Assembly: GCA_049976445.1 (NCBI GenBank)
Contig: JBMFIF010000001.1
Coordinates: 24,634 to 88,633, forward strand
Length of the DNA: 64,000 nucleotides
DNA from: Thermoprotei archaeon
Lineage (GTDB): Archaea > Thermoproteota > Thermoprotei > Gearchaeales > WAQG01
Direction: 5' to 3'
Under the pieces are notes generated by a model that was not told where the DNA came from, did not search any database, and saw nothing but the letters and a program-made list of their open reading frames with translations. The position numbers and the translations under genes were made by a program. Positions 12,105-60,928 of this stretch are shown one piece after another (within the stretch, counting starts at the first letter, position 1; every line of letters begins with the position of its first letter).

Positions 12105-12132
12105 TTATTTTATTTTTTATTGTTCTTTATTT
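12105..12132 (+). terminator. Oligo-T tract immediately after the SCP2 stop (archaeal intrinsic terminator-like)
   Basis: The sequence ttattttattttttattgttctttattt lies directly downstream of the stop codon. Confidence 0.3.
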
Positions 12133-13114: not shown

Positions 13115-13127
13115 GGAGATGATATGA

Positions 13128-29144: not shown

Positions 29145-30200
29145 TTGGTGATATTTATGGTTAGAGTTTCCATAGTTGGCGGTTCGGGATACAATGGAGG
29201 AGAATTATTAAGGATCTTAGCAAATCATTCGAAAGTCGAAGTTACTTATGTGACTTCTAAAGAATATGTTGGGAAACCTATAACTTTCGTACATCCGAAT
29301 TTGAGAGGATTTTATTCTTTAAGGTTTTCAGAGTATAATATAGATAAGCTAACTAATCTATCAGATGTAGTGTTTCTATCTGTACCACATGGCGTCTCAA
29401 TGACTTTAGTTCCGAGTCTTTTAAATGTTGGTTTGCGGGTGATTGATCTTAGTGCTGATTATAGACTTAAAGATCCTGAACTCTATAAGATCTGGTACGG
29501 GATTGAGCATCCACAACCTGATCTCTTAAGTAAGGCCGTTTATGGGCTACCGGAGCTACATTTTGATGAGTTGCAGAATGCTAGTCTGATAGCATCTCCA
29601 GGTTGTAATGCGACCGCTTCTATATTAGCTTTGGCACCTCTTGCAGCTAATGGTTTGGTTTACGGTAATGTCATTGTTGATATAAAGGCTGGTAGTAGTG
29701 AAGGTGGTTCTAAACCTACTGCAGGTAGTCATCATCCAGAGCGTGAGCATGCTATCAGGCCTTACGAAGCAGAGGGACATAGACATGTTGCTGAAATCGA
29801 GCAAGAATTAAATCGAATTTCTAAGAAAATTGGAAAAGTGAGTCTTATTCCTCATGCTGTAAGTAGTGTAAGAGGTGTACTGGCTTCTGCGCATGTTTGG
29901 GTTGAGTCTGTGTTAAGTGATTTAGATTTATTAAAAATTGTTTCAGGATTTTATAAGGACAGGAAGTTTATTCGTATTGTGAGAGGGTTTCCTCAGTATC
30001 CAGATCCAAAGTATGTGATTGGAAGTAACTTTGCTGATATTGGTTTTGCTTTTGAGAAGCGTGTTAATAGGGTTACTATTTTTGCGGCGTTGGATAATCT
30101 AATTAAGGGTGGTGCTGGGCAGGCAGTTCAGGCGTTTAACATATCTATGGGATTTGATGAAGGAGAGGGTCTCATGACACCTCCTTTAAGGCCGGTGTGA
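29145..30200 (+). CDS. lysY: N-acetyl-gamma-glutamyl-phosphate / [LysW]-aminoadipyl-phosphate reductase
   Basis: The N-terminal VSIVGGSGYNGGELLRIL and the catalytic Cys context (SPGCNAT) are present. Confidence 0.85.
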   Translation: MVIFMVRVSIVGGSGYNGGELLRILANHSKVEVTYVTSKEYVGKPITFVHPNLRGFYSLRFSEYNIDKLTNLSDVVFLSVPHGVSMTLVPSLLNVGLRVIDLSADYRLKDPELYKIWYGIEHPQPDLLSKAVYGLPELHFDELQNASLIASPGCNATASILALAPLAANGLVYGNVIVDIKAGSSEGGSKPTAGSHHPEREHAIRPYEAEGHRHVAEIEQELNRISKKIGKVSLIPHAVSSVRGVLASAHVWVESVLSDLDLLKIVSGFYKDRKFIRIVRGFPQYPDPKYVIGSNFADIGFAFEKRVNRVTIFAALDNLIKGGAGQAVQAFNISMGFDEGEGLMTPPLRPV

Positions 30201-30203: not shown

Positions 30204-30995
30204 ATGGTTATCGTTGTGAAAGCTGGTGGTAGGGTTATAAAAAATAATCTGAACAAATTGATCAAGAGTATTGCATCTTATCAGGAAAAATTAATTTTTG
30301 TTCATGGTGGTGGTGACCAAGTGACCGAGTATAGTAAAAGGATGGGTATAGAACCTAAATTTATTACGTCACCTGAGGGTGTTATGAGCCGTTATACCTC
30401 CCGAGAGGAGTTGGATATTTATGTTATGGTGATGAGTTTAATAAATAAAACAATCACATCAATGTTAATAAGTTTTGGTAAAAAGGTTATAGGTATTACT
30501 GGTATCGATGGTGCTATTTTTACTGCAATTCGAAAGAAAAAGGTTATGATTGTGGATGAGCGTGGACGTAAGCGAATCATCGATGGTGGTTATACTGGAA
30601 AAATTAACGATGTAAATTTTAGTTTGATTAATGCTTTACTTGGTCTTGTTGATATTGTTGTGATCTCCCCAGTAGCTATTGATGTTTCTGAGGGTGTTCC
30701 TCTTAATGTTGACGGTGATCAAGTAGCAAAAGCTATAGCTATAAGCGGTAAAGTTGAGAGATTGATTTTTCTTACTGATGTTGATGGTGTGATTTTCGAT
30801 AATAGATTAGTAAAGCATCTTTCTGTTAACGAAGCGATAGAAATAGTCTCCAAAATTGGCCCTGGCATGAATAGAAAGCTTCTTATGGGGTCTGAGGCTA
30901 TTAATGCTGGAGTGCATAAGGTGATAATATCCTCTGGTTTGGTGGATGATCCTATAGGTAATGCATTAAATGATGGAGGGACCGTTATTGAATAA
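30204..30995 (+). CDS. lysZ: Acetylglutamate kinase-family [LysW]-aminoadipate/glutamate kinase
   Basis: Amino-acid kinase fold (VVKAGG...FVHGGG). Confidence 0.85.
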   Translation: MVIVVKAGGRVIKNNLNKLIKSIASYQEKLIFVHGGGDQVTEYSKRMGIEPKFITSPEGVMSRYTSREELDIYVMVMSLINKTITSMLISFGKKVIGITGIDGAIFTAIRKKKVMIVDERGRKRIIDGGYTGKINDVNFSLINALLGLVDIVVISPVAIDVSEGVPLNVDGDQVAKAIAISGKVERLIFLTDVDGVIFDNRLVKHLSVNEAIEIVSKIGPGMNRKLLMGSEAINAGVHKVIISSGLVDDPIGNALNDGGTVIE

Positions 30996-31410
30996 GATTG
31001 ATGAGAAGGATTTGAAAATACTTAGTATTTTAAGAAAAAATGTGAGGACTCCATATACCGTAATCGCAAGAGAGCTTAATGTGAGTGAGGCTGCTGTGAG
31101 AAAAAGAGTGGAAAAATTAATACGAATGGGTGTAATAAAAAGGTTTACGATTGATTATGAATTAAAGAATGAAGTGAGGGCAATTGTAATGGTTAAGACA
31201 ATGCCTCCAATAAGTACACCAGAGGTTTCTAAGAAAATCATTGCTATTGATGGAGTAGAGGCAGTTTATGAGACTACTGGAGATTATGATATACTGGCTA
31301 TAATAAGGGGAAATAATATTGCAATGATTAATAAAAGTATCGATGCAATAAGAAGTATTGAGGGGGTTTCTGGTACGAACAGTATGATTGTTTTAAGAAC
31401 GTGGTTATAA
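30970..31410 (+). CDS. lysM: Lrp/AsnC-family transcriptional regulator (lysine-cluster regulator LysM-like)
   Basis: The Lrp/AsnC HTH (LKILSILRKNVRTPYTVIARELNVSEAAVRKRVEKL) is followed by a RAM domain. Its position inside the lys cluster supports the call. Confidence 0.75.
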   Translation: MMEGPLLNKIDEKDLKILSILRKNVRTPYTVIARELNVSEAAVRKRVEKLIRMGVIKRFTIDYELKNEVRAIVMVKTMPPISTPEVSKKIIAIDGVEAVYETTGDYDILAIIRGNNIAMINKSIDAIRSIEGVSGTNSMIVLRTWL

Positions 31411-31509: not shown

Positions 31510-31674
31510 ATGATCGCTCGATGTCCATTATGTGGAGGAAATGTAAAAGTTCCAGATGATGCGTTGCCTGGAGAAATCGTAGAGCACAGCTGTGGTGCGA
31601 CTTTAGAGGTACATGTAAATGATGGTAGTATAATACTGAAGTTGGCAGAGATTGGAGAGGATTGGGGAGAGTGA
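31510..31674 (+). CDS. lysW: Amino-group carrier protein LysW (54 aa; absent from the ORF track because it is under 60 aa)
   Basis: Translation is [54 protein letters not shown]. It has a Zn-ribbon CPxCG...C and the C-terminal EDWGE tail used for substrate attachment. An SD-like GGAGGTGA lies 5 nt upstream of the ATG. Its stop overlaps the lysX GTG start (GTGA). Confidence 0.75.
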
Positions 31675-32519
31675 ATTTAGGAATAGCATACGACTTTCTA
31701 CGATGGGAAGAAAATGATATAATTAATGAGGCAAAGAATCGCCAAATTAGGATCACCCCGATTTATTTAAAAGATTTCTCTATTAATATAAACGATGGAT
31801 TAAATTTGGACATAGATGCTGTAATTCAAAGGGGAGTTAGTCATAGTAGAGCATACACTTCTACTATTCTTTTTGAATCAAAATCATTATTTGTAATTAA
31901 TCCATCTCATGTATTGGAAATATGTGAGAATAAATTATATGTTACTTCAGTATTAGCTAAAAACAATATACCTGTTCCTAGGACTGGGATAGCTTATAAT
32001 AGAGATGAAGCTATAAAATTAGCTCAAAAAATTGGGTATCCAGTTGTTATTAAGCCAATTGATGGTAGTTGGGGCCGAATGGTTGCAAAAGCTGATGATG
32101 AAGATACGTTAAGAAGCCTTTTGGAATATCAGGAATATTCAAACACATCGTTTAAAAGTATCTTTTATATTCAAGAATATGTAAGAAAACCTAATAGGGA
32201 TATAAGGATTTTTGTAATAGGTGATGAGGTTCCCGTGGGTATATATAGAATTAATGAAAAAAATTGGAGGACGAATACAGCATTGGGCGCAAGAGCGGAA
32301 CCATTAAAGATCGATGATAAGTTAATTGATTTATCTTTAAAAGTTAAAGAAAGTATAGGAGGTTTATTTTTAGGTATTGATATTTTTGAGGATCCATTAC
32401 GAGGATATTTAGTTGATGAGGTTAATGGAATTCCTGAATATAAGAATACTGTACGTGTTACCGGTTTTAACGTTTCTGGTAAATTGTTAGAAAAAATAGC
32501 AGAGGTTGTTAAACGTTGA
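31671..32519 (+). CDS. lysX: RimK-family ATP-grasp ligase LysX (ligates alpha-aminoadipate to LysW)
   Basis: The RimK/ATP-grasp fold begins (V)[15 protein letters not shown] probable GTG start sits at the GTGA overlap with lysW; the ORF track's 31662 start is in the same frame. Confidence 0.8.
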
Positions 32520-33673
32520 AATTGGTTAGTTTTTTTGGTAATAGAGGACTCAAAATTGTTAAAGGTGAGGACCAATACGTATGGGATGAAAATGGTGTCA
32601 AATATCTTGACCTACATACTGGACATGGTGTAGCTTTCCTTGGTCACAGGAATAAAATTGTTGTTGAATATTTAAACAGACAAATGAATGAGATAATGAC
32701 TTTAACTACGGCTTTCTCATCATCAATACGTGACGAAATGTTAAGCGAGCTTGAATACGTGAAACCTGACGGACTTGATAACGTTTTTCTTTTGAACAGC
32801 GGTAGTGAAGCTGTAGAATTGGCAGTAAAAATTGCTAAAAAGATTACAAAAAGAAAGAAGTTTGTCGCTTTTAAAAATTCTTTTCATGGCAGGACTTTTG
32901 CAGCCTTATCTCTCACATGGAATAAAAAATATAGAGAACCTTTTGAACCTCTTATGGATGATGTTATATTTGCTGAATTCAACAACATTGAATCATTAAA
33001 AGTTGTAGATGATACAATTGCAGGAATAATAGTTGAGCCAGTTCAAGGTGAAGGAGGTGTTATACCTGCTCAGCTAGATTTTATGAAAGCCTTAAGGGAT
33101 ATTGCTGATAATACTGGTAGTATTCTTATAGTAGATGAAGTTCAAAGTGGATTTGGAAGAACTGGAAAAATATGGGCATATCAACATTTTAACATAAAAC
33201 CAGATATAATGACTGCCGGTAAAGCTATAGGTGGAGGTTTTCCAGTAAGTGCAGTATTCATGCCAGACTGGATTGCCAGTAAGCTGGATGAAGGTGATCA
33301 TGGTAGTACGTATGGTGGAAATCCACTTGCTATGGCTGCTGTTACTGCATCAGTAAAAGTTTTAAAAAATGATAATGTGATTAATAATGTTAGCGAGAAG
33401 GGGAAAAATTTTATTGACCTACTTAAGGTTAATTTAAAAGATTTTGATATTGTACGTAATATTAGAGGTCTTGGATTTATGATAGGAATTGATATGCGTA
33501 TAAATCCATCAAGTATCATAAAAGCACTTCAAGAAGAGAGGATTTTATCACTTAAGGCTGGAGTAACTACTATTAGATTTTTACCACCATACATGATAAC
33601 ATATGATGATATGAGGAATACTGTTGATACGTTAAGAAAAATATTTCAAAAAATTGAAATGAAAGCTGCATGA
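32516..33673 (+). CDS. lysJ: Class-III aminotransferase (acetylornithine/[LysW]-aminoadipate-semialdehyde aminotransferase)
   Basis: PLP-lysine context ([11 protein letters not shown]) and the class III fold are present. Confidence 0.85.
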
Positions 33674-39654: not shown

Positions 39655-42600
39655 TCACGCGTCTGAATTAATGACGTTTCCTGGGAGAGCTGAGGGCATT
39701 GCCTTCCTTTTAATTAAGTTTGTTAATTGATTCTTTGATGTTATCCATTTAAGGCTTTCTATAAATGCTTCTGCTGTAGCAATGTTTGTTATAACTGGTA
39801 TTCCTAGTTCGACTGCGCGTCTTCTTATTATGTATTCATCTTCTAGCATTACTGAGTATTTCTCAAGTGATAGTGAGCTTGGTATATTGATCACTAGATC
39901 TATTGATCCTTCTTTGAGATATTCGCTAATGTTTGGGTGTCTGGTTTTTTCATGAAACTTATAAATAATCTTTATGTTATCTATCCCATGCTCCATAAGG
40001 TACTCTGCAGTATGTTCTGTTGCAATAATATTGTAACCCATTTCCTTTAATTTAAGAGCTACGTTAAGAATTTTTTCTTTCATTTCTTTACCGCCTACTG
40101 ATATAAATATATTTCCTCCATGTTTTGGTATTTTATATCCTGCTGCTATTAATGCTTTAGCTAGTGCTTCATGGAAATCATCTCCAAAGCATGCAACTTC
40201 TCCTGTAGATTGCATTTCTACGCTAAGAATTGGATCGGTACCGTCTAATTGCATAAATGAAAACTGCGGAACTTTTACGCCGAATCTTGTTTTTGTTTCC
40301 ATATTGATATTGTTAGGTAGTTTTTTCCCAACTAATGCGCATGCCGCTAATTTCATAAGGTTAGTGTTGATGGTCTTTGATACGAATGGCATTGAGCGCG
40401 AGGCTCTTAGGTTACATTCTATAACGTATACATCACCGTTTTTGGTAAGATACTGAATGTTAAATGGCCCCTTTATGTTTAGGGCTTTAGCTATTTTTAT
40501 TGTGTACTCGATGATTTTTTCTTTTATTTTTTGTGTAATTCTTATTGGTGGTATGACCATTATTGCATCTCCTGAATGTACTCCGGCTGGTTCAATATGC
40601 TCTATTATTGCTCCTATTACTACGTTATCCCCATCAGACACGCCATCGACTTCAATTTCCATTGAGTTTGTAAAGAATTTGCTGATGACTACTGGATGTT
40701 CAGGGCTTATTTTTGTCGCTTCTACTATGTATTGTTTAAGTTGTGTTGGTGTCCATATAACTTTCATTGCAGCTCCGCTAAGTACATATGATGGTCTTAC
40801 AAGTACTGGATAGCCTACTTTTTGTGCAAAATGTTGTGCTTCTTCTAAGGTAGTAAATTCTTTCCATGGTGGTTGTTTGATATTTAGCGTGTCTAGTAAT
40901 TGGCTGAATTTTGCTCTATCCTCAGCCTTATCAATATTGCTACTATCTGTTCCAAGGATTTTTGCTCCCCATTTTGCTAGCTTTGGTGCTAAACTGTTAG
41001 CTGTTTGTCCTCCAACATTTACTACTATTCCTATTGGTTTTTCTTTTTCATAAATGTCAAGAACTCTTTCTAATGTTAATTCTTCGAAATAGAGTTTATC
41101 ACTCATGTCATAATCGGTTGATACTGTTTCAGGATTGCAGTTTATGACTATAGTTTCATCGAATCCTTCAGCTTTTAATGCCCATACCATGTTCATTGTG
41201 CACCAATCAAATTCTACTGAACTCCCTATTCTATATGGTCCTGCCCCAAGAACTATAACTTTACGTTTATCTGTGGAGAAATCAATATCGTTGAAGTCTC
41301 CATTATACGTGATATACAAGTAATTTGTTTTCGCTGGCCATTCTGCGGCTAGTGTATCGATCTGTTTTATGACAGGGTTAATATTAAGCTTTTTCCTAAG
41401 ATTTCTAATATTTTCTTCACTTGAGCCTAGGCATTTTGCAATTTGTTTATCAGAGAAACCCAATTGTTTTGCTTTCTTGATTACATAATATAATGTTTTC
41501 TCATCTATATTGATTGTTTTTTCTTTTAAGGTAAGGAGTTCTTTTTCCATGTCTACTATATTTTTTATTTTATTGATAAACCATGGATCAATTTCAGATA
41601 ATTTAGAGATCTCTTCTATACTTAATCCTTTTTTAAGTGCTTTAACAATGTAAAGGAGTATTTCATCTGTAGGGTTAGCGAGCATTTCTTTTACTTTTTC
41701 TAATGATATTTCATCATCTATTTCATCATCATTATAATTTGCTACTAATCCGTCTAATCCTATATCGAGCATTCTTACAGCTTTTTGTAATGCTTCTTCA
41801 AATTTTCTTCCAATAGCCATTACTTCACCTACTGATTTCATTTGTGTCCTTAATCTTCTATTAACTTTCGGAAATTTTTTAAAATCCCACCTAGGAATTT
41901 TTACAACAACATAATCAAGCGATGGTTCGAATGCCGCTGTTGTAATTCCAGTTACATTATTTATTAGCTCCGGTAGTGTGTAACCTAAGGCCAGTTTTGC
42001 GGCTATGTATGCTAAAGGATATCCTGTGGCTTTAGATGCTAATGCCGATGATCTAGACATTCTTGGATTAACCTCGATTACATAATATTTGTTAGTATTA
42101 GGGTCTAAGGCGAATTGTACGTTACATTCTCCAACAACATTCAATGCTTGGGCTGCCTTAATAGCTGCGCTACGTAGAATATGATATTCTTTATTGTTTA
42201 ATGTTTGCGATGGAGCAACAACAATGTTATCACCTGTGTGAACACGCATTCCTAATATATTTTCCATATTACAAACTACTATACAGTTATCCTCATAATC
42301 TCTCATTACTTCATATTCTATCTGCTTAAGACCTCCTAGATATTCTTCTATGAGAACTTCTTTTATTAAACTGTGAGCTAGCCCCTTTTCGACAATATTT
42401 ATAAGTTCTTCTTCGTTTTGGGCAACACCGCCGCCTTTCCCTCCAAGTGTAAAAGCAACTCTTATCATTACAGGATAACCAATCTCTTTCGCAACAGTTT
42501 TTGCTTCCTCTAATGAATGTGCACTTTTACTTTTTGGTACTGGTAGTCCTGCTTCTATCATAACTTTCTTAAAACGTTCTCTGTCACTAGCATTCTCAAT

Positions 42601-42966
42601 AGTCTCTACTGATGTACCAAGTACTTTTACATTATATTTATTTAAAATACCCATTCTAGCGAGCTCAACACCACAATTTAAAGCTGTCTGGCCGCCAAAC
42701 GTTAGAATTATGCCGTCAGGGCTTTCTTTTTTAATGACCTCTTCTACATATTCTGGTGTTACTGGTAAGAAATAAATCTTATCAGCCATGTTTTCATCAG
42801 TTTGTATGGTTGCTATATTTGGATTTACTAATATTGTCTCTATACCTTCTTCTCTTAGTGCTTTGAGACATTGACTACCAGAATAGTCGAATTCTCCTGC
42901 TTCACCTATTTTGATTGCGCCGCTCCCAAGTATTAGTACTTTTCTTATGCTTGTGTTTTTAGGCAT
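39655..42966 (-). CDS. carB: Carbamoyl-phosphate synthase large subunit
   Basis: Duplicated ATP-grasp halves plus the MGS-like domain; 1103 aa. Confidence 0.9.
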   Translation of the reverse strand: MPKNTSIRKVLILGSGAIKIGEAGEFDYSGSQCLKALREEGIETILVNPNIATIQTDENMADKIYFLPVTPEYVEEVIKKESPDGIILTFGGQTALNCGVELARMGILNKYNVKVLGTSVETIENASDRERFKKVMIEAGLPVPKSKSAHSLEEAKTVAKEIGYPVMIRVAFTLGGKGGGVAQNEEELINIVEKGLAHSLIKEVLIEEYLGGLKQIEYEVMRDYEDNCIVVCNMENILGMRVHTGDNIVVAPSQTLNNKEYHILRSAAIKAAQALNVVGECNVQFALDPNTNKYYVIEVNPRMSRSSALASKATGYPLAYIAAKLALGYTLPELINNVTGITTAAFEPSLDYVVVKIPRWDFKKFPKVNRRLRTQMKSVGEVMAIGRKFEEALQKAVRMLDIGLDGLVANYNDDEIDDEISLEKVKEMLANPTDEILLYIVKALKKGLSIEEISKLSEIDPWFINKIKNIVDMEKELLTLKEKTINIDEKTLYYVIKKAKQLGFSDKQIAKCLGSSEENIRNLRKKLNINPVIKQIDTLAAEWPAKTNYLYITYNGDFNDIDFSTDKRKVIVLGAGPYRIGSSVEFDWCTMNMVWALKAEGFDETIVINCNPETVSTDYDMSDKLYFEELTLERVLDIYEKEKPIGIVVNVGGQTANSLAPKLAKWGAKILGTDSSNIDKAEDRAKFSQLLDTLNIKQPPWKEFTTLEEAQHFAQKVGYPVLVRPSYVLSGAAMKVIWTPTQLKQYIVEATKISPEHPVVISKFFTNSMEIEVDGVSDGDNVVIGAIIEHIEPAGVHSGDAIMVIPPIRITQKIKEKIIEYTIKIAKALNIKGPFNIQYLTKNGDVYVIECNLRASRSMPFVSKTINTNLMKLAACALVGKKLPNNINMETKTRFGVKVPQFSFMQLDGTDPILSVEMQSTGEVACFGDDFHEALAKALIAAGYKIPKHGGNIFISVGGKEMKEKILNVALKLKEMGYNIIATEHTAEYLMEHGIDNIKIIYKFHEKTRHPNISEYLKEGSIDLVINIPSSLSLEKYSVMLEDEYIIRRRAVELGIPVITNIATAEAFIESLKWITSKNQLTNLIKRKAMPSALPGNVINSDA

Positions 42967-44104
42967 ATATTCTCACCATATTATGTTTGTGTATCTTTTC
43001 TCTAAAGATATCAAAGACAAAGAGTGTATCATATGGTCCTGGTGATGCTTCAGGATGGAACTGGACTGCTAAGATTGGTTTATTTTTATGTTTTATACCT
43101 TCTACAGTCTTATCATCGGCGTTTATCCACCAAACTTCTAAGCCAGTATTTTTTAATGAATCAGGATTTACTGCAAAGCCATGATTCTGACTAGTAACAT
43201 AACTTTTTTTAGTTATGAGATTTATTGAAGGTTTGTTTTGGCCTCTATGACCATACTTTAACTTAAAAGTATCAGCGCCCATTCCTAATGCTAATATTTG
43301 ATTACCAAGACATATGCCCATGATTGGAATATTCATGTCTATAAGTTGACGGGTTAGTTCTATGGTTTCAGTAAAACTTCTAGGATTGCCTGGTCCATTA
43401 CTTAAAACTATACCTTTTGGATTATAAGCAAGGACTTCATCAATATTAGTGTTGTAAGGTAATCTGATTACACGAAATCCCTTTTCTATTAAATTTCTTA
43501 TTATGCTGACTTTAACTCCACAATCAATAAGTACGATAGTTTCATTTCCGTTACCATAAATGATTGGTTTTTTAGTTGATACTTCATGAGCAAATTTTAT
43601 TTCATCATAACGTTTCGTATTCTTCAATTCATTAATTAAGTTATCAATTGATATATCATTTTGTGAAACCTCTAATATTCCCATCATAACACCTTTGGAT
43701 CTTAGTCTTTTTGTTAATTCTCGTGTATCGATACCTTGTATGCCTGGCACTTTCTCTTCATATAACCATTCATGAAGTGATTTCTTAGATAAGACATGAC
43801 TTGGAGCATCACAGGCTTCATAAACGACTAATCCATTAACCTGTATTCTTTCTGATTCAAAATGTAATGGCAAACCCCATGAATCTTTTATGTTGTAACT
43901 AGGAACACCATAATTGCCTATTAAAGGATAAGTCATAACAAGTATCTGTCCACGGTATGATGGATCAGTTAATGCCTCTGTATATCCAGTCATTCCTGTA
44001 TTGAACACTACTTCACCAATAACGCGTTTCGGATATCCGAAACCTTTACCTATCCATACACTGCCATCCTCAAGTACTAGTATGGCATTTAGTGATTCTG
44101 TCAT
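42959..44104 (-). CDS. carA: Carbamoyl-phosphate synthase small (glutamine amidotransferase) subunit
   Basis: A class I GATase with catalytic Cys context (GICLGNQ). It overlaps carB by 8 nt. Confidence 0.9.
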   Translation of the reverse strand: MTESLNAILVLEDGSVWIGKGFGYPKRVIGEVVFNTGMTGYTEALTDPSYRGQILVMTYPLIGNYGVPSYNIKDSWGLPLHFESERIQVNGLVVYEACDAPSHVLSKKSLHEWLYEEKVPGIQGIDTRELTKRLRSKGVMMGILEVSQNDISIDNLINELKNTKRYDEIKFAHEVSTKKPIIYGNGNETIVLIDCGVKVSIIRNLIEKGFRVIRLPYNTNIDEVLAYNPKGIVLSNGPGNPRSFTETIELTRQLIDMNIPIMGICLGNQILALGMGADTFKLKYGHRGQNKPSINLITKKSYVTSQNHGFAVNPDSLKNTGLEVWWINADDKTVEGIKHKNKPILAVQFHPEASPGPYDTLFVFDIFREKIHKHNMVRIYA

Positions 44105-44332
44105 TAATCTCTATCCTTATATGGAAAGAATACATTTTATTTAAATATATTCGAATATTTTGATAATTTTTAGAAACAGGAATAACATTACTGCTGAATA
44201 CAATAAACTAAACAAAATAAATATTGATGAAAATTTTGTTCTAATTATAACGTTTTTTGCAAAAGATTTAACGAATGTATCATAAAAATTATATTTGATT
44301 ATACTTCATATACAAATACGCAGGTGAACAAT

Positions 44333-44512
44333 ATGGCCATAAAAGTAATGTGCCAAGTATGTGGGGGAACAATTACGATACCTGATGATGCAATAGTAGG
44401 AGAGATCGTATCATGCCCAGATTGTGGAATTGATTATGAGGTTTCTCAAATTAATAATGGTAGTATTCAATTAAAAATAGCAGAAGATATAGGAGAGGAT
44501 TGGGGAGAATAA
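44333..44512 (+). CDS. Second LysW-like amino-group carrier protein (ArgW-like), upstream of argX
   Basis: Translation is MAIKVMCQVCGGTITIPDDAIVGEIVSCPDCGIDYEVSQINNGSIQLKIAEDIGEDWGE. It has the same Zn-ribbon plus EDWGE architecture as lysW at 31510. An SD-like AGGTGA lies before the ATG; the ORF track starts it 9 nt earlier at a GTG. Confidence 0.7.
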   Translation: MAIKVMCQVCGGTITIPDDAIVGEIVSCPDCGIDYEVSQINNGSIQLKIAEDIGEDWGE

Positions 44513-44527
44513 GGAGCGATCTACGGG

Positions 44528-45385
44528 TTGGTGAATTTAATAATACTGTATGACAGAATCAGATGGGAAGAAAAACAAATAGCAGAAGAAGCCAAAGCTT
44601 TAGGCGCCACAGTAACTATGATAGACGTTAGATCACTACCATTAGAAATCACATCTAATTCCATTAAAAAGGAATTTGATGGTGTTGTCTTACAAAGATG
44701 CGTAAGTCATACACGCGGAATTTATTATACTGCAATACTTGAAGAACACAATGTTAATGTTATCAATAGTTTTTTTACTACAATGATTACAAGTAATAAA
44801 CTTCTTACAACATTAAAGTTAGTTAAAAATAACATACCTACACCTAAAACTGGTGTAGCTTTTTCATACGATGCAGCTTTAAAAATTGCGAAAGATATAG
44901 GATATCCTGTTGTTATAAAACCGATTTTAGGCAGTTGGGGAAGATTAGTGAATAAGGCGAGAGATCAAGATGAGCTCTCGTCCCTTCTTGAAGCAAGAGA
45001 ACTGTTTTCTGATCCTTTATATCAAGTTTACTATCTGCAAGAATATGTAAAAAGGCCTCCAAGAGATATAAGAAGCATAGTTGTTGGTGATGAAATTATC
45101 GCAATAACTTATAGATATCAACCTGAAAACGATTGGAGAACAAACGTTGCAAGGGGAGGTATAGTTGATAAAGCATATCTTTCTGATGATGAACATGAAA
45201 TTATTCTTCGTGCAGCTAAGACAGTTGGTGGAGGTATTCTTGGTATTGATGCGATGGAAAGTGATAGAGGCATTTTAATTCATGAGATTAATGGAACAGT
45301 AGAATTCAGAGGGGCTGCATCAGTATGGGGAAATATAATACCTAGATCAATAGCTGAATACGCCATAAAAAGAGCTAAGAACTGA
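44528..45385 (+). CDS. argX: RimK-family ATP-grasp ligase, ArgX-like (glutamate-LysW ligase)
   Basis: MVNLIILYDRIRWEEKQ... is a paralog of lysX. It sits in the carAB-argGH neighbourhood. Confidence 0.7.
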   Translation: MVNLIILYDRIRWEEKQIAEEAKALGATVTMIDVRSLPLEITSNSIKKEFDGVVLQRCVSHTRGIYYTAILEEHNVNVINSFFTTMITSNKLLTTLKLVKNNIPTPKTGVAFSYDAALKIAKDIGYPVVIKPILGSWGRLVNKARDQDELSSLLEARELFSDPLYQVYYLQEYVKRPPRDIRSIVVGDEIIAITYRYQPENDWRTNVARGGIVDKAYLSDDEHEIILRAAKTVGGGILGIDAMESDRGILIHEINGTVEFRGAASVWGNIIPRSIAEYAIKRAKN

Positions 45386-45435
45386 AAAATAATATATGAA
45401 ATACAAATTTTTCTCTTCCTAGGTGTATAAAGGTA

Positions 45436-46548
45436 ATGATTACTCACAAAGAGTTGCTTGTTAATATGATAAAAATCTATTCGCCAAGTAATAAAGAGGA
45501 TAATATTAGATCATACATAAACAAATTGCTCAATGAAGAGTTTAAGGCTGATAAAACGTATATCGACAATGCCGGAAATATAATTGGAATCTATGATGGT
45601 ATAGAACCTACAATTTTGCTCTCAAGCCACATGGATACAGTACCTGGTGAGATTAATGTAAAAGTTGATAGGGAAAAAATTTACGGAAGAGGAGCATCAG
45701 ATGCAAAAGGACCCTTAGCAACATTCCTCTATTCATCATACTTATTAAAAAGGGTAGAAAACTATCCGTCAAAAATAATAGTAGTTGGTACAGTTGATGA
45801 AGAAGGAGAAAGTAGGGGAATAAAGGAATTGCCTAATACCCTACAAAAATTAGACATCAGACCCTCATATGCAATTTTTGGTGAACCAGGGGGTGCTAAT
45901 GTCATAACAATAGGATACAAAGGAAGAATACAATTACGTATAAAACTATTTGCCGAAAGCTATCATGCATCATTACCAAATGCTCCAAATGTTATAGAGA
46001 ACATGATGATAATACTCAATGCTTTAAAAAACTATGAAAAAGAATTTAAAACATCTAATAATTTCACCTCCATAACAATAACACCCACAATTATAACTGG
46101 CGGTCATGCAACAAACGTAACACCACGTGAATGTGAGATAGTATTAGACATACGTATTCCACCAACAAAATCAATAAACGAATTCTTATCAAACATAATT
46201 AACATAGTTAAATCTAATACTAATTTGAGAAATGAATGCATTGTCGAGGATTTTACTGAACCTTACCAATCAAATATTTCAACTCCTTTGGTCACTGCAT
46301 TTCGTGAAGCTATATTGCAAATAACCAACATAGACGCAAGATTCATAAGGAAGAGTGGAACTGGCGAGATGAATATTTTTGCTCAAAAATATGATATTCC
46401 AATTATAACATATGGTCCTGGAGATCCAAAAGTATCTCACACGGATAATGAGCACATTCTCTTATATGATTACGAATTAGCAATTAAAATCGTAAAACAA
46501 GCACTTTGGAAGCTTCAGAAAATACAAGAAAAGAGAAACCTCAAATAA
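45436..46548 (+). CDS. lysK: M20-family [LysW]-lysine/ornithine hydrolase (ArgE/LysK-like)
   Basis: M20 metal-binding motifs are present (SSHMDTVPGE, GASDAKGP, DEEGES). Confidence 0.75.
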   Translation: MITHKELLVNMIKIYSPSNKEDNIRSYINKLLNEEFKADKTYIDNAGNIIGIYDGIEPTILLSSHMDTVPGEINVKVDREKIYGRGASDAKGPLATFLYSSYLLKRVENYPSKIIVVGTVDEEGESRGIKELPNTLQKLDIRPSYAIFGEPGGANVITIGYKGRIQLRIKLFAESYHASLPNAPNVIENMMIILNALKNYEKEFKTSNNFTSITITPTIITGGHATNVTPRECEIVLDIRIPPTKSINEFLSNIINIVKSNTNLRNECIVEDFTEPYQSNISTPLVTAFREAILQITNIDARFIRKSGTGEMNIFAQKYDIPIITYGPGDPKVSHTDNEHILLYDYELAIKIVKQALWKLQKIQEKRNLK

Positions 46549-46693: not shown

Positions 46694-47380
46694 GTGAAAA
46701 GCGAATTAAGCATTGCAAAGGTTGTGCGTAGTGTAGTTAACACGCATCCATCGTTAATAGATTGTCTTAGGAATGGTACTCTAAATTATACTGCAACTGC
46801 TAAAATGTTGAGAGATGAGGTTTCAAAGTTAATGGGTACTGATGTTGAGGTTGATGCCATTAAGATGGCGTTGATACGTTATAGTGAGGAGCTTAAAGAA
46901 GATTTAGAGCGTATTGAAAATAATGTTAGGAAGGTTTTAGCTGAAAGTACGCTTCAAATGCGGAATGACGTTGTCGTGGTTACAACAAAATGGGAAAATG
47001 TTACGGGAAAGTTAGATACGATAATTCGTGTGTCGGGTGGTTCTAGATTTTTCCAGATCACTCAGGGTATTAATACGTTTACTATTGTTATTGAAAAAAA
47101 GATGGAGAAGGATTTGGTATCTATCATTGGTGAGCATAATGTGAATAGTATTATCAGAAATCAGAGTGCGATAATACTCTTGAGTCCAGAGGAAATAATA
47201 TCAACGCCTGGAGTCATAGCTTATACCACGTGGCTTCTTTCGAAAGAAGGCATTAATATAACTCAGATTATTTCGTGCCATCTGGATACAATCTTCATAG
47301 TGAGTCAGGAGCAAGCTTTAAAAGCATATAAAGTACTTGAGGATTCAATAAATAATATAAGACGGTTCATTGATGAATAA
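46694..47380 (+). CDS. ACT-domain-containing putative regulatory protein
   Basis: The C-terminal beta-alpha-beta-beta-alpha-beta-like segment (GVIAYTTWLLSKEGINITQIISCHLDTIFIV) is consistent with an ACT domain. It lies upstream of argG. Confidence 0.35.
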   Translation: MKSELSIAKVVRSVVNTHPSLIDCLRNGTLNYTATAKMLRDEVSKLMGTDVEVDAIKMALIRYSEELKEDLERIENNVRKVLAESTLQMRNDVVVVTTKWENVTGKLDTIIRVSGGSRFFQITQGINTFTIVIEKKMEKDLVSIIGEHNVNSIIRNQSAIILLSPEEIISTPGVIAYTTWLLSKEGINITQIISCHLDTIFIVSQEQALKAYKVLEDSINNIRRFIDE

Positions 47381-47484: not shown

Positions 47485-48720
47485 ATGAAAAAGATAGTGT
47501 TAGCATACTCAGGAGGATTAGATACTTCAGTGTCGATAAAATGGTTGCAGGAAAAATATGGATATGAAGTTATTACTGTCACATTGGACGTTGGTCAAGG
47601 TGAAGATTTTGGAGAGATAGAGAAGAAAGCTTATGAAATAGGAGCTGTTAAACATTATACTATAAATGTATTGGATGAGTTTGTAAGAGATTATATTAAT
47701 CCAGCGATAAAAGCTAATGCTCTTTATCAGAATAAGTATCCATTAAGTAGTGCTTTATCTAGACCTTTGATATCGAAATATTTGGTCAAGATTGCGGAAA
47801 AAGAGAATGCTGAGGCTGTTGCTCATGGTTCTACAGGTAAGGGTAATGATCAAGTTAGGTTTGAAGTAACTATTAAAGCATTAAATCCTAACTTAAAGAT
47901 CATAGCACCTGTAAGAGAATGGAATTTAACTAGAGAAGAGGAGATAGAGTATGCGAAAAAGCATGGAATTCCTATAAGAGCTACTAAGAAAAGCCCATAC
48001 AGTATTGATCAGAACCTATGGGGTAGATCAATTGAAGGTGGTGTTTTAGAGTATCCTGAAGAGGAACCACCATCAGATGTATTTGAGTGGACTGTGGATC
48101 CTGTAAAAGCTCCTGATACGCCAGGCTACATAACTATTGGTTTTCGGGACGGAATCCCAATAAGTTTAAATGGTGAAGAAATCGATGAAATTGCTTTAAT
48201 CTCTGAGCTTAATCGTATTGTGGGGATGCATGGTATTGGAAGGATTGATCATATGGAAGATAGACTAGTCGGTATAAAGTCGAGAGAAGTTTATGAATGC
48301 CCAGCAGCCTTAGCTATCATTGAGGCACATAAAGATTTAGAGAAATTTGTTCTTACACGGCATGAAAATAATTTAAAAGAAATGATAGATCAAACATGGA
48401 CTCAGCTTGTCTATAGTGGTTTATGGATGGAACCTTTAAGACTCGATCTTCAAGCTTTCATAGATTCAACACAAATACCTAGAGTTAGTGGGCAGGTTAC
48501 ACTCAAATTGTTTAAGGGCGGTATGCGTGTGGTTGGTAGGAAAAGTGATTATGCGTTGTATGATTTAAAATTATCAACATATGATGCCTCATCAACATTT
48601 AATCAGAAGGATGCTATCGGATTTATAGAGCTTTGGGGTCTTCAAACTGTTACTGCTCACAAAGTATTAAGGATGGTTAATGAAAATGCACGAAAAACCA
48701 TGGGAGTCGAGATTAAGTAA
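47485..48720 (+). CDS. argG: Argininosuccinate synthase
   Basis: The AYSGGLDTS P-loop and the full ArgG fold are present. Confidence 0.9.
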   Translation: MKKIVLAYSGGLDTSVSIKWLQEKYGYEVITVTLDVGQGEDFGEIEKKAYEIGAVKHYTINVLDEFVRDYINPAIKANALYQNKYPLSSALSRPLISKYLVKIAEKENAEAVAHGSTGKGNDQVRFEVTIKALNPNLKIIAPVREWNLTREEEIEYAKKHGIPIRATKKSPYSIDQNLWGRSIEGGVLEYPEEEPPSDVFEWTVDPVKAPDTPGYITIGFRDGIPISLNGEEIDEIALISELNRIVGMHGIGRIDHMEDRLVGIKSREVYECPAALAIIEAHKDLEKFVLTRHENNLKEMIDQTWTQLVYSGLWMEPLRLDLQAFIDSTQIPRVSGQVTLKLFKGGMRVVGRKSDYALYDLKLSTYDASSTFNQKDAIGFIELWGLQTVTAHKVLRMVNENARKTMGVEIK

Positions 48721-50170
48721 TAAAAAGAAAGCTTTAATACTTATTAAAGAAGCTGAAAGAGATCTAAAGAATGATAAAAATTTAATACCTTATGAAATAC
48801 TTGTCAATGAAGCACATGTAATAATGCTCTATAGAGTTGGGATTTTAGAAAAAAGTGATGCACTAGCAATCCTCAAAGCTCTTGAAGAATTTTATAACGA
48901 GTGGATGAGTGGTAACATACAACTTAATCCAGAACTTGAGGACATACATTTTCATGTTGAATCATATTTAATAAATAAATTGGGAATGCGCATAGGTGGT
49001 AAGCTTCATACAGCAAGAAGTCGCAATGATTTAATAGCTACTGATATCAGATTATATCTCAGAGATGCTATAAATCAATTCTCACAAGAGTTATTAAACG
49101 CTATGGAAAAGCTGCTTAGCATTGCAGAATCTAATATAACAACTATCATACCAGGATATACTCATATGCAGCAAGCTCAGCCAATAACATTAAGTCATTA
49201 TTTAATAGCACAAGTAAATCAGTTAATGCGTACTTATCAAAGGTTGCGCGAATCGTACGAAAGAGTTAATCTTTCGCCCTTAGGTTCTGGAGCGTTGGCT
49301 GGAGTTAATTGGCCTATAGATAGAGAACTGGTTGCTCGGTATCTGGGTTTTTCTGGTATTATTGAAAATTCATTAGATGCAATAACATCTAGGGGCGAAA
49401 TTGAAACAGAAATATTATCTAACTTAGCAATATTATTTACTCAACTTAGTAGAATTGCGGAAGATATTATATTCTGGTCATCTCAGGAAAGCAGGCTAAT
49501 AGAGCTGGATGATTCTTACGTGGGTATTAGCAGTATTATGCCTCAAAAAAAGAATCCTGAAGCAGCAGAAATCATAAGAGCTAAATCATCAGAACTCTAT
49601 GGAAACTTAATTAAGGTATTAATAGTAATGAAAGGATTACCGACCGGATATAATAAAGATATGCAGGAATTTAAAGGAATTTTACAAGAAAGTTTTGAGA
49701 TAACAAAGTTAAGCTTACAATCTATTGTTGGCATGATAGAGACGATGAAGATCAATAACGATGTATTCGTAAATTCTCCCTCAATGACATATACCCTTGC
49801 TACTGATATAGCTGATATATTAGTAAAAAAGTTGGGAATATCATTTAGAGAAGCACATCAAGTAATCGCTTCAGCAGTTAAACGTTCACAAGGTAAAGGT
49901 CTTACCATCGAACACATAATCTTATCATTAAGTGAGGTGCTAGGTATAAGAATTTATGATATACCTGAATTAAAACTAAACCCAGAAATGAGTATAAACA
50001 TGAAAATCAGTAAGGGGAGTACTAACCCTAATGAAAACATAAAGATGTTGGATAAACTTAAAAAAGCAATAATAAAGGAAAGAAACATATTGAACAGTGA
50101 GATTGAGCGAATTAATGCATCACTAAAAATACTAAAAGAGGATGTTAAAAAATTAGCGGAATTATCTTAG
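48680..50170 (+). CDS. argH: Argininosuccinate lyase (with ~40-aa C-terminal coiled-coil-like extension)
   Basis: Fumarase/aspartase family signature (GSSIMPQKKNP). Confidence 0.85.
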   Translation: MKMHEKPWESRLSNKKKALILIKEAERDLKNDKNLIPYEILVNEAHVIMLYRVGILEKSDALAILKALEEFYNEWMSGNIQLNPELEDIHFHVESYLINKLGMRIGGKLHTARSRNDLIATDIRLYLRDAINQFSQELLNAMEKLLSIAESNITTIIPGYTHMQQAQPITLSHYLIAQVNQLMRTYQRLRESYERVNLSPLGSGALAGVNWPIDRELVARYLGFSGIIENSLDAITSRGEIETEILSNLAILFTQLSRIAEDIIFWSSQESRLIELDDSYVGISSIMPQKKNPEAAEIIRAKSSELYGNLIKVLIVMKGLPTGYNKDMQEFKGILQESFEITKLSLQSIVGMIETMKINNDVFVNSPSMTYTLATDIADILVKKLGISFREAHQVIASAVKRSQGKGLTIEHIILSLSEVLGIRIYDIPELKLNPEMSINMKISKGSTNPNENIKMLDKLKKAIIKERNILNSEIERINASLKILKEDVKKLAELS

Positions 50171-60654: not shown

Positions 60655-60928
60655 GTTTAATCAAAAATAATTTTGGAGACAGAAATAAATAAACCTAACT
60701 TAATTAATACATACTCATTCTGAATCGCAAAAATTTCTAATTTAAGGTTTTATTAATCTTATTCATGTATCTTCTAAACCTTTGCACTACTCTTGAGATA
60801 GGAGTAGACAATAATGCCCCCCCGTCTTAAAATGCAAAGTTTTCATTTTTGTAATATTGATAATATTTTTTATTCTAAACATTTATAGCTAATATTTAGA
60901 AATGGACGTGGCAACTTAAGGTTTAATC

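What the first reader, a model, noticed from the sequence alone, without database searches (positions are those of the whole stretch)
44324..46548. Second LysW-type carrier protein gene next to argX and lysK in the carAB-argGH neighbourhood
Two ~55-59 aa Zn-ribbon proteins ending in EDWGE are present. One is lysW in the lysYZMWXJ cluster at 31.5 kb. The other sits immediately upstream of a second RimK-type ligase (argX-like) and the M20 hydrolase lysK. In the characterised Sulfolobus system a single LysW serves both lysine and arginine synthesis. A dedicated second carrier adjacent to argX suggests pathway-specific carrier specialisation, i.e. an ArgW. The two proteins differ throughout except for the Zn knuckles and the acidic tail.
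Basis: partly seen in the sequence, partly recalled or inferred. Interest (0 to 1): 0.55.

Follow-up and report, generated by a model that had tools for sequence, protein, structure and literature searches.

The report
Second LysW carrier beside ArgX-type ligase
This uncultured hot-spring archaeon carries two intact genes for the small carrier protein used to build lysine and arginine, one beside the lysine-loading enzyme and one beside an arginine-type loading enzyme that came from a different archaeal lineage; every other archaeal locus I compared has only one carrier.

Summary
The window encodes two LysW-type Zn-ribbon carriers ending in EDWGE. LysW-A (31510-31674, 54 aa) lies in lysY-lysZ-lysM-lysW-lysX-lysJ. 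LysW-B (most likely 44333-44512, 59 aa) lies in lysW-ligase-lysK-ACT-argG-argH, divergent from carAB.

By the published 5-residue specificity motif, ligase A is LysX type (F-I-T-N-T) and ligase B is ArgX-like (I-T-V-G-A). Both carriers are under purifying selection. The two-carrier layout recurs in at least two further lineages, so it is neither a pseudogene, an annotation gap nor an assembly chimera.

The interpretation needs correction:
- The organism is an uncultured "Thermoprotei" MAG, not a characterised Sulfolobus.
- Ligase B is not an ortholog of Sulfolobus ArgX.
- The B module (lysW, ligase, lysK, and lysY in one relative) is of Nitrososphaeria type, so it is probably a xenolog rather than a local paralog.
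- The two carriers are 58% identical.
- Specialisation cannot be complete: the only lysK in the window is in module B, and the only lysZ, lysY and lysJ are in module A.

An ArgW role at the loading step is well supported by context but is not tested biochemically. This is a new variant of a known system, of moderate interest.

The parts
29145..30200 (+). lysY (LysW-aminoadipyl/glutamyl-phosphate reductase), module A; the only copy in the window
   Evidence: 64-68% identical to Metallosphaera and Sulfolobaceae-like LysY in the same gene order. Pfam Semialdhyde_dh is recorded for the ortholog in L099.
30204..30995 (+). lysZ (carrier-bound amino-acid kinase), module A; the only copy in the window
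   Evidence: 59-64% identical to Sulfolobaceae-like LysZ. Pfam AA_kinase is recorded for the ortholog in L099.
30970..31410 (+). lysM (Lrp/AsnC-type regulator), module A
   Evidence: 70-74% identical to Sulfolobaceae-like LysM and 90-91% to the relatives L050/L051. Pfam HTH_AsnC and AsnC_trans_reg are recorded for the ortholog in L099.
31510..31674 (+). lysW-A: carrier protein of the Sulfolobales type (3 Cys plus His), C-terminus IGEDWGE
   Evidence: NF041070 scores 75.5 bits against a cutoff of 75. The best solved-structure match is S. tokodaii LysW, 3vpb_E, at 75.8 bits. dN/dS is 0.02-0.18. NCBI annotates it as LysW/ArgW, MGB9728323.1.
31662..32519 (+). Ligase A = lysX. The likely start is the GTG at 31671, which overlaps the lysW-A stop as GTGA.
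   Evidence: TIGR02144 scores 356.9 bits. The specificity motif is F-I-T-N-T and the GSWGR motif is present. It sits inside the Sulfolobaceae LysX clade with 100% bootstrap support. The ortholog in L099 is called with a 4-nt overlap onto lysW.
32516..33673 (+). lysJ (aminotransferase), module A; the only copy in the window. No lysK follows it: a convergent gamma-glutamyltranspeptidase gene (33674-35179, minus strand) comes next.
   Evidence: 61-65% identical to Sulfolobaceae-like LysJ. Pfam Aminotran_3 and G_glu_transpept are recorded for the orthologs in L099.
39655..44104 (-). carB (39655-42966) and carA (42959-44104), transcribed divergently from module B
   Evidence: ORFs. Pfam CPSase families are recorded for the orthologs.
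44105..44332 (.). carA/lysW-B divergent intergenic region. It holds a conserved AT-rich box TCATAAAAATTATATTTGA, GGTGA 4 nt before the ATG (4 nt between them), and the perfect palindrome ATATTCGAATAT (44147-44158).
   Evidence: Alignment of four lineages. The palindrome occurs only once in the window, but a single hit is not above chance: 44 of 100 shuffles gave at least one match. Any function is inferred.
44333..44512 (+). lysW-B ('argW' candidate): 59-aa carrier with 4 Cys (CQVC...CPDC) and C-terminus IGEDWGE
   Evidence: NF041070 scores 92.3 bits. It is 100% identical to P0001, which NCBI names LysW/ArgW. dN/dS is 0.08-0.21 across four lineages. The nearest homologs outside its own clade are Nitrososphaeria LysW at 60-67%.
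44528..45385 (+). Ligase B: an ArgX-like Glu-carrier ligase of the Nitrososphaeria type. It is not a Sulfolobus ArgX ortholog.
   Evidence: TIGR02144 scores 302.6 bits. The motif is I-T-V-G-A and GSWGR is present. It is 43% identical to ligase A, about 35% to StArgX and SaArgX, and 57-59% to Nitrososphaeria ligases.
45436..46548 (+). lysK ([carrier]-lysine/ornithine hydrolase, M20); the only copy in the window
   Evidence: TIGR01902 scores 273 bits against a cutoff of 163. It is 41-43% identical to Nitrososphaeria LysK and 31-34% to Sulfolobaceae LysK.
46694..47380 (+). ACT-domain protein (DUF7523 plus ACT_7) between lysK and argG; role unknown, possibly regulatory
   Evidence: Pfam hits. A homolog lies next to argG in Nitrososphaeria, Acidilobaceae and Sulfolobales-MAG loci.
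47485..50170 (+). argG (47485-48720) and argH (48680-50170)
   Evidence: ORFs. Pfam Arginosuc_synth and Lyase_1 are recorded for the orthologs. ArgG is 62-66% identical to the Nitrososphaeria-type protein and 51% to the Sulfolobaceae one.

Best explanation
The window holds a mosaic carrier-protein (AmCP) pathway for lysine and arginine, built from two carrier-ligase pairs.

Module A (lysY-lysZ-lysM-lysW-lysX-lysJ) is the native, Sulfolobaceae-type lysine module. LysX loads alpha-aminoadipate onto the C-terminal Glu of LysW-A.

Module B (lysW-B, ArgX-like ligase, lysK, ACT, argG, argH, divergent from carAB) is a Nitrososphaeria-type arginine module. It was probably acquired by horizontal transfer and replaced the native ArgX and LysK. 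Ligase B loads glutamate onto the C-terminal Glu59 of LysW-B.

The window has only one lysZ, lysY and lysJ (module A) and one lysK (module B). Both carrier-bound substrates are therefore presumably processed by the same kinase, reductase, aminotransferase and hydrolase. Ornithine then goes on through ArgG and ArgH, via an ArgF that is not in the window, using carbamoyl phosphate from CarAB.

LysW-B thus acts as an 'ArgW' at the loading step. It has been kept either because it is the co-adapted partner of its xenologous ligase, or because it gives the arginine operon its own carrier supply independent of the LysM-linked lysine operon, or both.

Shown here: the gene content, the motifs, the phylogenetic affinities, the conservation and the purifying selection. 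Inferred: the substrates, the carrier-ligase pairing, and the sharing of downstream enzymes.
For: - Two intact carriers, each directly followed by a ligase carrying the GSWGR tail-binding motif.
- Ligase A has the motif F-I-T-N-T, the LysX type; SaLysX ends in N-T according to PMC10433800. Ligase B has I-T-V-G-A and shares I, V and G with the ArgX type I-Y-V-G-F from PMC12998189 Table 1.
- Ligase B clusters at 78% bootstrap with Nitrososphaeria ligases that sit as argG-argH-lysW-ligase(I-I-V-G-A)-lysY-lysZ-lysJ. A separate F-I-T-N-S/T ligase lies beside homocitrate synthase and lysK in those same loci.
- The adjacent lysW-argX pair (Nmar_1287/1288) has been proposed as the arginine route in Nitrosopumilus maritimus (PMC6038301).
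- Xenolog evidence: in relative L047 a lysY inside module B is 70% identical to Nitrososphaeria LysY but only 52% to the module-A LysY. Window LysK is 41-43% identical to the Nitrososphaeria protein against 31-34% for Sulfolobaceae, and ArgG is 62-66% against 51%.
- Conservation: both carriers lie on one contig in GCA_038881895.1. The same layout can be stitched from L050/L051 and L047/L048, which overlap at 99.6%. The B module is also present in L001.
- dN/dS is 0.08-0.21 for LysW-B and 0.02-0.18 for LysW-A.
- G+C is uniform at about 33% across both modules.
- Carrier type tracks the adjacent ligase type in the loci examined: 3 Cys plus His with F-I-T-N-T in 22 of 22 distinct cases, and SCPDCG with I/V-x-V/I-G-A in 21.
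- After the presumed transfer, the redundant lysY, lysZ and lysJ copies of module B were lost step by step, but the carrier stayed with its ligase in all four lineages.
Against: - There is no biochemical evidence at all.
- The specificity motif matches the validated ArgX motif at only 3 of 5 positions. No enzyme of the I-x-V-G-A clade has been characterised in the literature I could read.
- Carriers of both types are naturally shared by two ligases elsewhere: one LysW serves LysX and ArgX in Sulfolobus, and there is one LysW per locus beside two ligases in Nitrososphaeria and Aigarchaeota-type loci. Strict carrier-ligase exclusivity is therefore not required by the family.
- The two carriers share 58% identity and the same EDWGE tail.
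- Only 64 kb of the genome is visible. A Sulfolobaceae-type argX, a second lysK, or further lysZ, lysY or lysJ copies could lie elsewhere.
- The related loci were recruited by exact 8-residue patterns, so they are not an unbiased survey.
- The direction of transfer is inferred from nesting in a neighbour-joining tree with moderate support (78%).
Confidence: 0.6

Rival explanations
1. The carriers are redundant. Both ligases accept either carrier, and lysW-B persists only because it travelled with the transferred operon. On this view it provides extra carrier dosage or arginine-operon-controlled expression, with no biochemical discrimination between the two carriers.
For: - A single LysW serves two ligases in every other lineage examined and in Sulfolobus (PMC10433800).
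- The carriers share 58% identity, an acidic character and an identical EDWGE tail.
- The downstream enzymes in the window must already accept both carriers.
Against: - The carrier was retained with its ligase in four diverged lineages while the other redundant genes of the transferred module (lysZ, lysJ, then lysY) were lost.
- LysW-B is under clear purifying selection.
- Carrier type correlates strictly with the clade of the adjacent ligase.

None of these points excludes a purely regulatory or dosage benefit.
Confidence: 0.3
2. Module B's carrier and ligase do not make arginine. They would serve another carrier-dependent product, such as a non-proteinogenic amino acid as in the Streptomyces AmCP secondary-metabolite pathways, or act as a second lysine route.
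For: LysW-like carriers are used in secondary metabolism in Streptomyces; this rests on my own knowledge (Hasebe et al. 2016) and that paper was not read here. The motif I-T-V-G-A is not identical to any characterised type.
Against: - The genes sit between carAB and argG-argH and are followed directly by lysK.
- Orthologous ligases in Nitrososphaeria are also fused into argGH clusters.
- No biosynthetic tailoring genes are nearby.
- No other ArgX candidate is visible in the window.
Confidence: 0.05
3. The arrangement is an artefact: a metagenomic mis-assembly joined a Nitrososphaeria fragment to a Sulfolobales-like contig, or one copy is a decaying pseudogene.
For: The sequence comes from a MAG, and module B has Nitrososphaeria affinity.
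Against: - The same junctions (GGT-Cas6-...-carB-carA | lysW-B-ligase) occur in independent assemblies from NCBI, JGI, ENA and Logan.
- G+C is uniform at about 33%.
- Both ORFs are intact with dN/dS well below 1.
Confidence: 0.02

Closest known systems
Sulfolobus acidocaldarius / Sulfurisphaera tokodaii LysW system (one common carrier, LysX plus ArgX, shared LysZ/Y/J/K; Ouchi et al. 2013, as cited in PMC10433800 and PMC12998189; structure 3VPB)
   Same: - Module A has the same gene order, lysYZM-lysWXJ, at 60-74% identity.
- The carrier is of the same 3 Cys plus His type.
- Two pathway-specific ligases feed one shared set of downstream enzymes.
- The arginine ligase sits beside carAB and argGH.
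   Different: - Sulfolobus has one carrier. Its argX directly follows carB (argG-argH-carA-carB-argX) with no lysW nearby.
- Here the arginine ligase belongs to a different clade (about 35% identity; motif I-T-V-G-A instead of I-Y-V-G-F).
- Here that ligase has its own 4-Cys carrier.
- Here lysK has moved to the arginine module.
Nitrososphaeria (Thaumarchaeota) lysW-argX clusters, e.g. Nmar_1287/1288 (a predicted arginine route, PMC6038301), and the thermophilic Nitrososphaeria loci L032-L041 and L083-L092
   Same: - The carrier type is the same (SCPDCG, 60-67% identical).
- The ligase clade and motif are the same (I-I-V-G-A, 57-59% identical).
- lysW lies immediately upstream of the ligase, next to argG and argH.
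- LysK, and the LysY of relative L047, are closest to these lineages.
   Different: In those loci the single LysW also serves a second, LysX-type ligase in the same cluster, so there is one carrier. Here a separate Sulfolobales-type carrier-LysX pair coexists with it.
Haloarchaeal ArgW/ArgX pathway (Natrinema gari J7-2; PMC10433800)
   Same: A LysW homolog dedicated to arginine synthesis and loaded with glutamate by an ArgX; this is also the source of the name ArgW.
   Different: Haloarchaea have only that one carrier and make lysine through the DAP pathway. Their ArgX motif ends in A-L. No second carrier coexists.
Thermococcus kodakarensis bifunctional LysX/LysW (structure 5K2M; Yoshida et al. 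2016, as cited in PMC12998189)
   Same: The same carrier chemistry, with shared downstream enzymes for the Lys and Orn branches.
   Different: One carrier and one bifunctional ligase (motif Y-I-T-N-A), against two carriers and two ligases here.

Membership tests
LysW/ArgW amino-group carrier protein (NCBIfam NF041070, Pfam PF21344) | Profile match above the curated cutoff | tested here: met
   LysW-B scores 92.3 bits and LysW-A 75.5 bits, against a cutoff of 75. PF21344 is precomputed for P0001.
LysW/ArgW amino-group carrier protein (NCBIfam NF041070, Pfam PF21344) | Zn-ribbon with two metal-binding knuckles | tested here: met
   LysW-B has CQVC...CPDC (4 Cys, as in Thermus and Thermococcus LysW). 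LysW-A has CPLC...H-S-C (3 Cys plus His, as in S. tokodaii LysW 3vpb_E). Metal binding itself was not tested.
LysW/ArgW amino-group carrier protein (NCBIfam NF041070, Pfam PF21344) | C-terminal EDWGE motif ending in the Glu that is ligated to the substrate | tested here: met
   Both proteins end in IGEDWGE followed by a stop codon.
LysW/ArgW amino-group carrier protein (NCBIfam NF041070, Pfam PF21344) | Covalent loading of Glu or AAA on the C-terminal Glu by a LysX/ArgX ligase | not testable with these tools
   This needs an in vitro ligation assay with mass spectrometry.
Sulfolobus-type ArgX (glutamate-LysW ligase, UniProt Q4J8E7/Q970U6 clade) | Membership of the ArgX clade | tested here: not met
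   Ligase B is about 35% identical to StArgX and SaArgX. It scores lower against 3vpb_A (155.8 bits) than against Thermus LysX (203 bits). The neighbour-joining tree places it outside the crenarchaeal ArgX clade, which has 99% support.
Sulfolobus-type ArgX (glutamate-LysW ligase, UniProt Q4J8E7/Q970U6 clade) | 5-residue specificity motif I-Y-V-G-F | tested here: inconclusive
   Ligase B has I-T-V-G-A, a 3 of 5 match. It clearly lacks the LysX residues F, T and N.
LysX/ArgX RimK-type ATP-grasp ligases (TIGR02144) | Profile match above cutoff, plus the GSWGR motif that binds the carrier's EDWGE tail | tested here: met
   Ligase B scores 302.6 bits and ligase A 356.9 bits, against a cutoff of 275.6. 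GSWGR is present in both.
LysX (alpha-aminoadipate-LysW ligase) | Specificity motif F-I-T-N-S/T | tested here: met
   Ligase A has F-I-T-N-T and sits inside the Sulfolobaceae LysX clade at 100% bootstrap. Ligase B does not have this motif.
Dedicated 'ArgW' (a carrier used only for arginine, as in Natrinema gari) | The carrier is required for arginine synthesis but not for lysine synthesis | not testable with these tools
   Only the context is available: lysW-B is in an operon-like arrangement with the ArgX-like ligase, lysK, argG and argH. This needs genetics or biochemistry.
LysK/ArgE [carrier]-lysine/ornithine hydrolase (TIGR01902) | Profile match above cutoff | tested here: met
   273.1 bits against a cutoff of 163.1. 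The narrower model NF003367 scores 267.9 bits, below its cutoff of 363.

The most novel reading that the evidence does not exclude
The two carrier-ligase pairs are truly orthogonal: ArgX-like ligase B uses only LysW-B, and LysX uses only LysW-A. One shared set of LysZ/Y/J/K enzymes accepts both carriers. Carrier identity would then tag and partition the lysine and arginine fluxes through common enzymes, and each flux could be controlled separately through carrier supply. That would make this a natural two-carrier AmCP system, created when a xenologous carrier-ligase pair displaced the native ArgX.
Probability: 0.25. Interest if true: 0.65.

Novelty: new variant of a known kind. Interest (0 to 1): 0.48.

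Why it matters
Current models of carrier-protein-mediated lysine and arginine synthesis describe one carrier per organism. The carrier is either shared by both pathways (Sulfolobus, Thermococcus) or used for one pathway only (Thermus, haloarchaea).

A lineage that stably keeps two carriers, each tied to a pathway-specific ligase while the downstream enzymes are shared, is a natural experiment. It bears on which steps of the pathway read the carrier's identity.

It also records a mosaic pathway built by horizontal transfer: a Nitrososphaeria-type arginine module grafted onto a Sulfolobales-type lysine module, with stepwise loss of the redundant enzymes but not of the carrier. This is directly relevant to the 'patchwork' view of how the Lys and Arg pathways evolved.

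Finally, it supplies four proteins (two ligases and two carriers) for a simple, decisive 2x2 specificity assay.

Tried and rejected
1. I treated ligase B as a Sulfolobus ArgX ortholog and rejected that: about 35% identity, a better match to Thermus LysX than to 3vpb_A, and exclusion from the ArgX clade.

2. I considered a local duplication of lysW. This is unlikely, because the B-module genes (ligase, LysK, and the LysY of L047) have Nitrososphaeria affinity.

3. I considered an annotation gap or a pseudogene and rejected both. NCBI annotates both genes as LysW/ArgW, and both are under purifying selection.

4. I considered an assembly chimera and rejected it on the basis of independent assemblies and uniform G+C.

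5. The genome contigs and metagenome-contig scans with LysW-A used exact 8-residue patterns. They therefore returned only 38 and 49 loci and did not return the source genome itself. They are not a census of LysW copy number per genome.

6. Literature:
- Ouchi 2013 and Yoshida 2016 are not held in the library.
- The hits for 'two lysW' refer to unrelated things: different genes called lysW in gamma-proteobacteria, and two LysW monomers in a LysY crystal complex.
- No paper in the library describes two LysW carriers in one archaeon.

7. The first neighbour-joining run with Biopython's distance calculator timed out. I repeated it with a numpy distance routine.

8. The palindrome ATATTCGAATAT occurs only once in the window and a single hit is not above chance, so no regulon could be inferred from it.

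9. Modelling the carrier-ligase complexes was not possible.
Full report
**Observation**

The window contains two LysW-type genes, and no other ORF ends in (D/E)WGE behind a Zn ribbon.

LysW-A (31510-31674, 54 aa) has the Zn ligands CPLC...H-S-C and ends in IGEDWGE. LysW-B is listed mechanically as 44324-44512 (GTG, 62 aa). It most likely starts at the ATG at 44333 (59 aa), which follows GGTGA and matches the database protein P0001. It has CQVC...CPDC and also ends in IGEDWGE.

Both pass the curated cutoff of NCBIfam NF041070, 'alpha-aminoadipate/glutamate carrier protein LysW/ArgW', with 92.3 and 75.5 bits against a cutoff of 75. The second Zn knuckle is in fact one of the places where they differ.

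**Surroundings**

Module A is lysY (29145) - lysZ (30204) - lysM (30970) - lysW-A - ligase A (31662, probably starting at the GTG at 31671, which overlaps the lysW-A stop) - lysJ (32516). A convergent gamma-glutamyltranspeptidase gene follows. There is no lysK in this module.

Module B is transcribed divergently from carA and carB (39655-44104, minus strand). It reads lysW-B - ligase B (44528, 15 nt after the lysW-B stop, preceded by GGAG) - lysK (45436) - an ACT/DUF7523 protein (46694) - argG (47485) - argH (48680). G+C is uniform at about 33% across both modules.

**Which ligase does what**

The published 5-residue specificity motif, in Thermus LysX numbering 182/192/203/258/259, has three known forms (PMC12998189 Table 1):
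- F-I-T-N-S for LysX. SaLysX ends in N-T (PMC10433800).
- I-Y-V-G-F for Sulfolobus ArgX.
- Y-I-T-N-A for the bifunctional Thermococcus enzyme.

Aligned to Thermus LysX, ligase A reads F-I-T-N-T and ligase B reads I-T-V-G-A. Both carry the GSWGR motif that binds the carrier tail. Ligase A is therefore a LysX. Ligase B lacks all the LysX-specific residues and shares three of five with ArgX.

**Ligase B is not a Sulfolobus ArgX ortholog**

- It scores 155.8 bits against S. tokodaii ArgX (3vpb_A) but 203 bits against Thermus LysX.
- It is about 35% identical to StArgX and SaArgX.
- Its nearest relatives outside its own small clade are 'LysX' proteins of Nitrososphaeria, Conexivisphaera, Methanomethylicia and Bathyarchaeia, at 50-59%.
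- In a neighbour-joining tree with 100 bootstraps, ligase B and its orthologs form a 100% clade. That clade is sister (78%) to the I-I-V-G-A ligases of thermophilic Nitrososphaeria.
- It lies outside the crenarchaeal ArgX clade, which has 99% support.
- Ligase A sits inside the Sulfolobaceae LysX clade at 100%.

**Comparative architecture**

Every other lineage sampled shows one carrier per locus together with two ligases.

| Lineage | Gene order |
|---|---|
| Sulfolobaceae (lysine cluster) | lysYZM-lysW-lysX-lysJ-lysK |
| Sulfolobaceae (arginine cluster) | argG-argH-carA-carB-argX; argX overlaps the end of carB; no LysW-like ORF within 10 kb |
| Acidilobaceae and a Sulfolobales MAG | lysZY, then divergently lysW-lysX-lysJ-lysK-argX' |
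| Aigarchaeota-type and other Thermoproteota | argX(..GF)-lysY-lysZ-lysW-lysX-lysJ-lysK |
| Thermophilic Nitrososphaeria | ACT(-)-argG-argH-lysW-ligase(I-I-V-G-A)-lysY-lysZ-lysJ-lysM-HCS-ligase(F-I-T-N-S/T)-lysK |

The window combines the Sulfolobaceae lysine cluster, minus lysK, with the front and back of the Nitrososphaeria-type cluster.

Carrier type follows the adjacent ligase type in the loci examined. The 3 Cys plus His carriers always precede an F-I-T-N-T ligase (22 of 22 distinct cases). The SCPDCG carriers precede I/V-x-V/I-G-A ligases (21 cases). These loci were recruited by exact 8-mer patterns, so they are not an unbiased sample.

**Origin of module B**

- In the relative L047/L048, module B also contains a lysY between the ligase and lysK. 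That LysY is 70% identical to Nitrososphaeria LysY and only 52% identical to the module-A LysY.
- Window LysK is 41-43% identical to Nitrososphaeria LysK, against 31-34% for Sulfolobaceae LysK.
- ArgG is 62-66% against 51%.

Module B therefore looks like a xenologous arginine module of Nitrososphaeria type, not a local duplicate. Its redundant genes appear to have been lost stepwise: lysZ and lysJ in all sampled relatives, and lysY in the window, L049 and L001. The carrier has stayed with its ligase throughout.

**The arrangement is real and conserved**

- NCBI annotates both carriers in the source MAG, as MGB9728314.1 and MGB9728323.1.
- In GCA_038881895.1 both lie on contig JAVZOV010000004.1, as MEM3833437.1 and MEM3833446.1. 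The second is misnamed 'sulfonate ABC transporter'.
- Loci L099 (module A) and L049 (module B) from that contig overlap at 100% identity.
- L050/L051 (module A, LysW-A 91% identical) overlap L047/L048 (module B) at 99.6% over 6.5 kb, which indicates a third lineage with both carriers.
- L001 carries the same module B.
- dN/dS is 0.08-0.21 for LysW-B and 0.02-0.18 for LysW-A.

Pseudogene, annotation gap and chimera are thus excluded.

**Mechanism (inferred)**

1. Ligase B ligates glutamate to Glu59 of LysW-B. LysX ligates alpha-aminoadipate to LysW-A.
2. Both carrier-bound substrates are then processed by the single LysZ, LysY and LysJ of module A.
3. They are released by the single LysK of module B.
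4. Ornithine proceeds to arginine through ArgG and ArgH, via an ArgF that is not in the window, using carbamoyl phosphate from CarAB.

Carrier specialisation, if it exists, is therefore confined to the loading step. I estimate 0.6 that LysW-B is the arginine-branch carrier loaded by ligase B, and about 0.25 that the two pairs are strictly orthogonal.

The main rival, at about 0.3, is functional redundancy, with retention of lysW-B for dosage or for operon-specific expression. That rival draws support from the fact that single carriers naturally serve two ligases in all other lineages.

**Comparison with what is known, and novelty**

The chemistry and all the protein families are known. 'ArgW' is an existing name for the sole carrier in haloarchaea (PMC10433800), and it already appears in NCBI's family label. 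An adjacent lysW-argX pair is the predicted arginine route in ammonia-oxidising archaea (PMC6038301).

Three things are new:
- Two carriers coexist in one primary-metabolism system, each linked to a pathway-specific ligase.
- The pathway has a mosaic Sulfolobales/Nitrososphaeria origin.
- The native ArgX and LysK appear to have been displaced.

I found no description of such a two-carrier archaeal system in the searchable literature, but the key primary papers were not available. My verdict is a new variant of a known kind, with interest of about 0.5.

Noticed in passing
window 46694-47380 (+): A 228-aa DUF7523 plus ACT-domain protein lies between lysK and argG. Homologs lie next to argG in Nitrososphaeria (on the opposite strand), Acidilobaceae and Sulfolobales-MAG loci, but not in the Sulfolobaceae argGH-carAB-argX operons. 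It may be an amino-acid-sensing regulator of the arginine cluster.
   Followed up: partly
window 44147-44158 (carA/lysW-B intergenic region): The perfect palindrome ATATTCGAATAT is invariant in the four lineages aligned and occurs only once in the window. A single occurrence is not above chance. It could be an operator of the divergent carA and lysW-B promoters.
   Followed up: partly
L047/L048 10852-11895 (+): This relative keeps a second lysY/argC paralog inside module B. It is 70% identical to Nitrososphaeria LysY and 52% to its own module-A LysY. The window, L049 and L001 have lost it cleanly: only 50 nt separate the ligase from lysK in the window.
   Followed up: yes
window 35258-36160 (-): A solitary Cas6 gene (Cas6_N plus CRISPR_Cas6 in the orthologs) sits at the same position in all relatives. 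No CRISPR array or other cas genes are present in the 64 kb.
   Followed up: partly
window 59695-62020 (-): An ornithine cyclodeaminase/mu-crystallin family gene (59695-60654) lies next to a PylC-like ATP-grasp gene (60929-62020). This is an unusual pair whose function is not obvious, located about 10 kb from the arginine genes.
   Followed up: no
GCA_038881895.1 JAVZOV010000004.1 (L099 10001-10165): The LysW-A ortholog MEM3833446.1 (and MGC8948707.1 in another MAG) is named 'sulfonate ABC transporter' in NCBI. This is an annotation error for a 54-aa LysW.
   Followed up: yes
window 31510-31674 compared with L052-L059, L010 and L031: LysW-A of this lineage has a linker one residue shorter before the tail ([12 protein letters not shown]) than Sulfolobaceae LysW (LRLAEQ[IV]GEDWGE). 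In this it resembles the Acidilobaceae carriers ([12 protein letters not shown]).
   Followed up: no
window 3845-3939 (+): ARAGORN calls a 95-nt tRNA-Phe with anticodon AAA. The length suggests an intron-containing archaeal tRNA whose anticodon may have been misread.
   Followed up: no
window 6484-16111: A fatty-acid beta-oxidation-like cluster: a fused 3-hydroxyacyl-CoA dehydrogenase/enoyl-CoA hydratase, an acyl-CoA dehydrogenase, a thiolase, ETF alpha, and a CCG/Fe-S oxidoreductase. An aromatic amino-acid (shikimate pathway) cluster follows argH at 50.2-58.6 kb.
   Followed up: no
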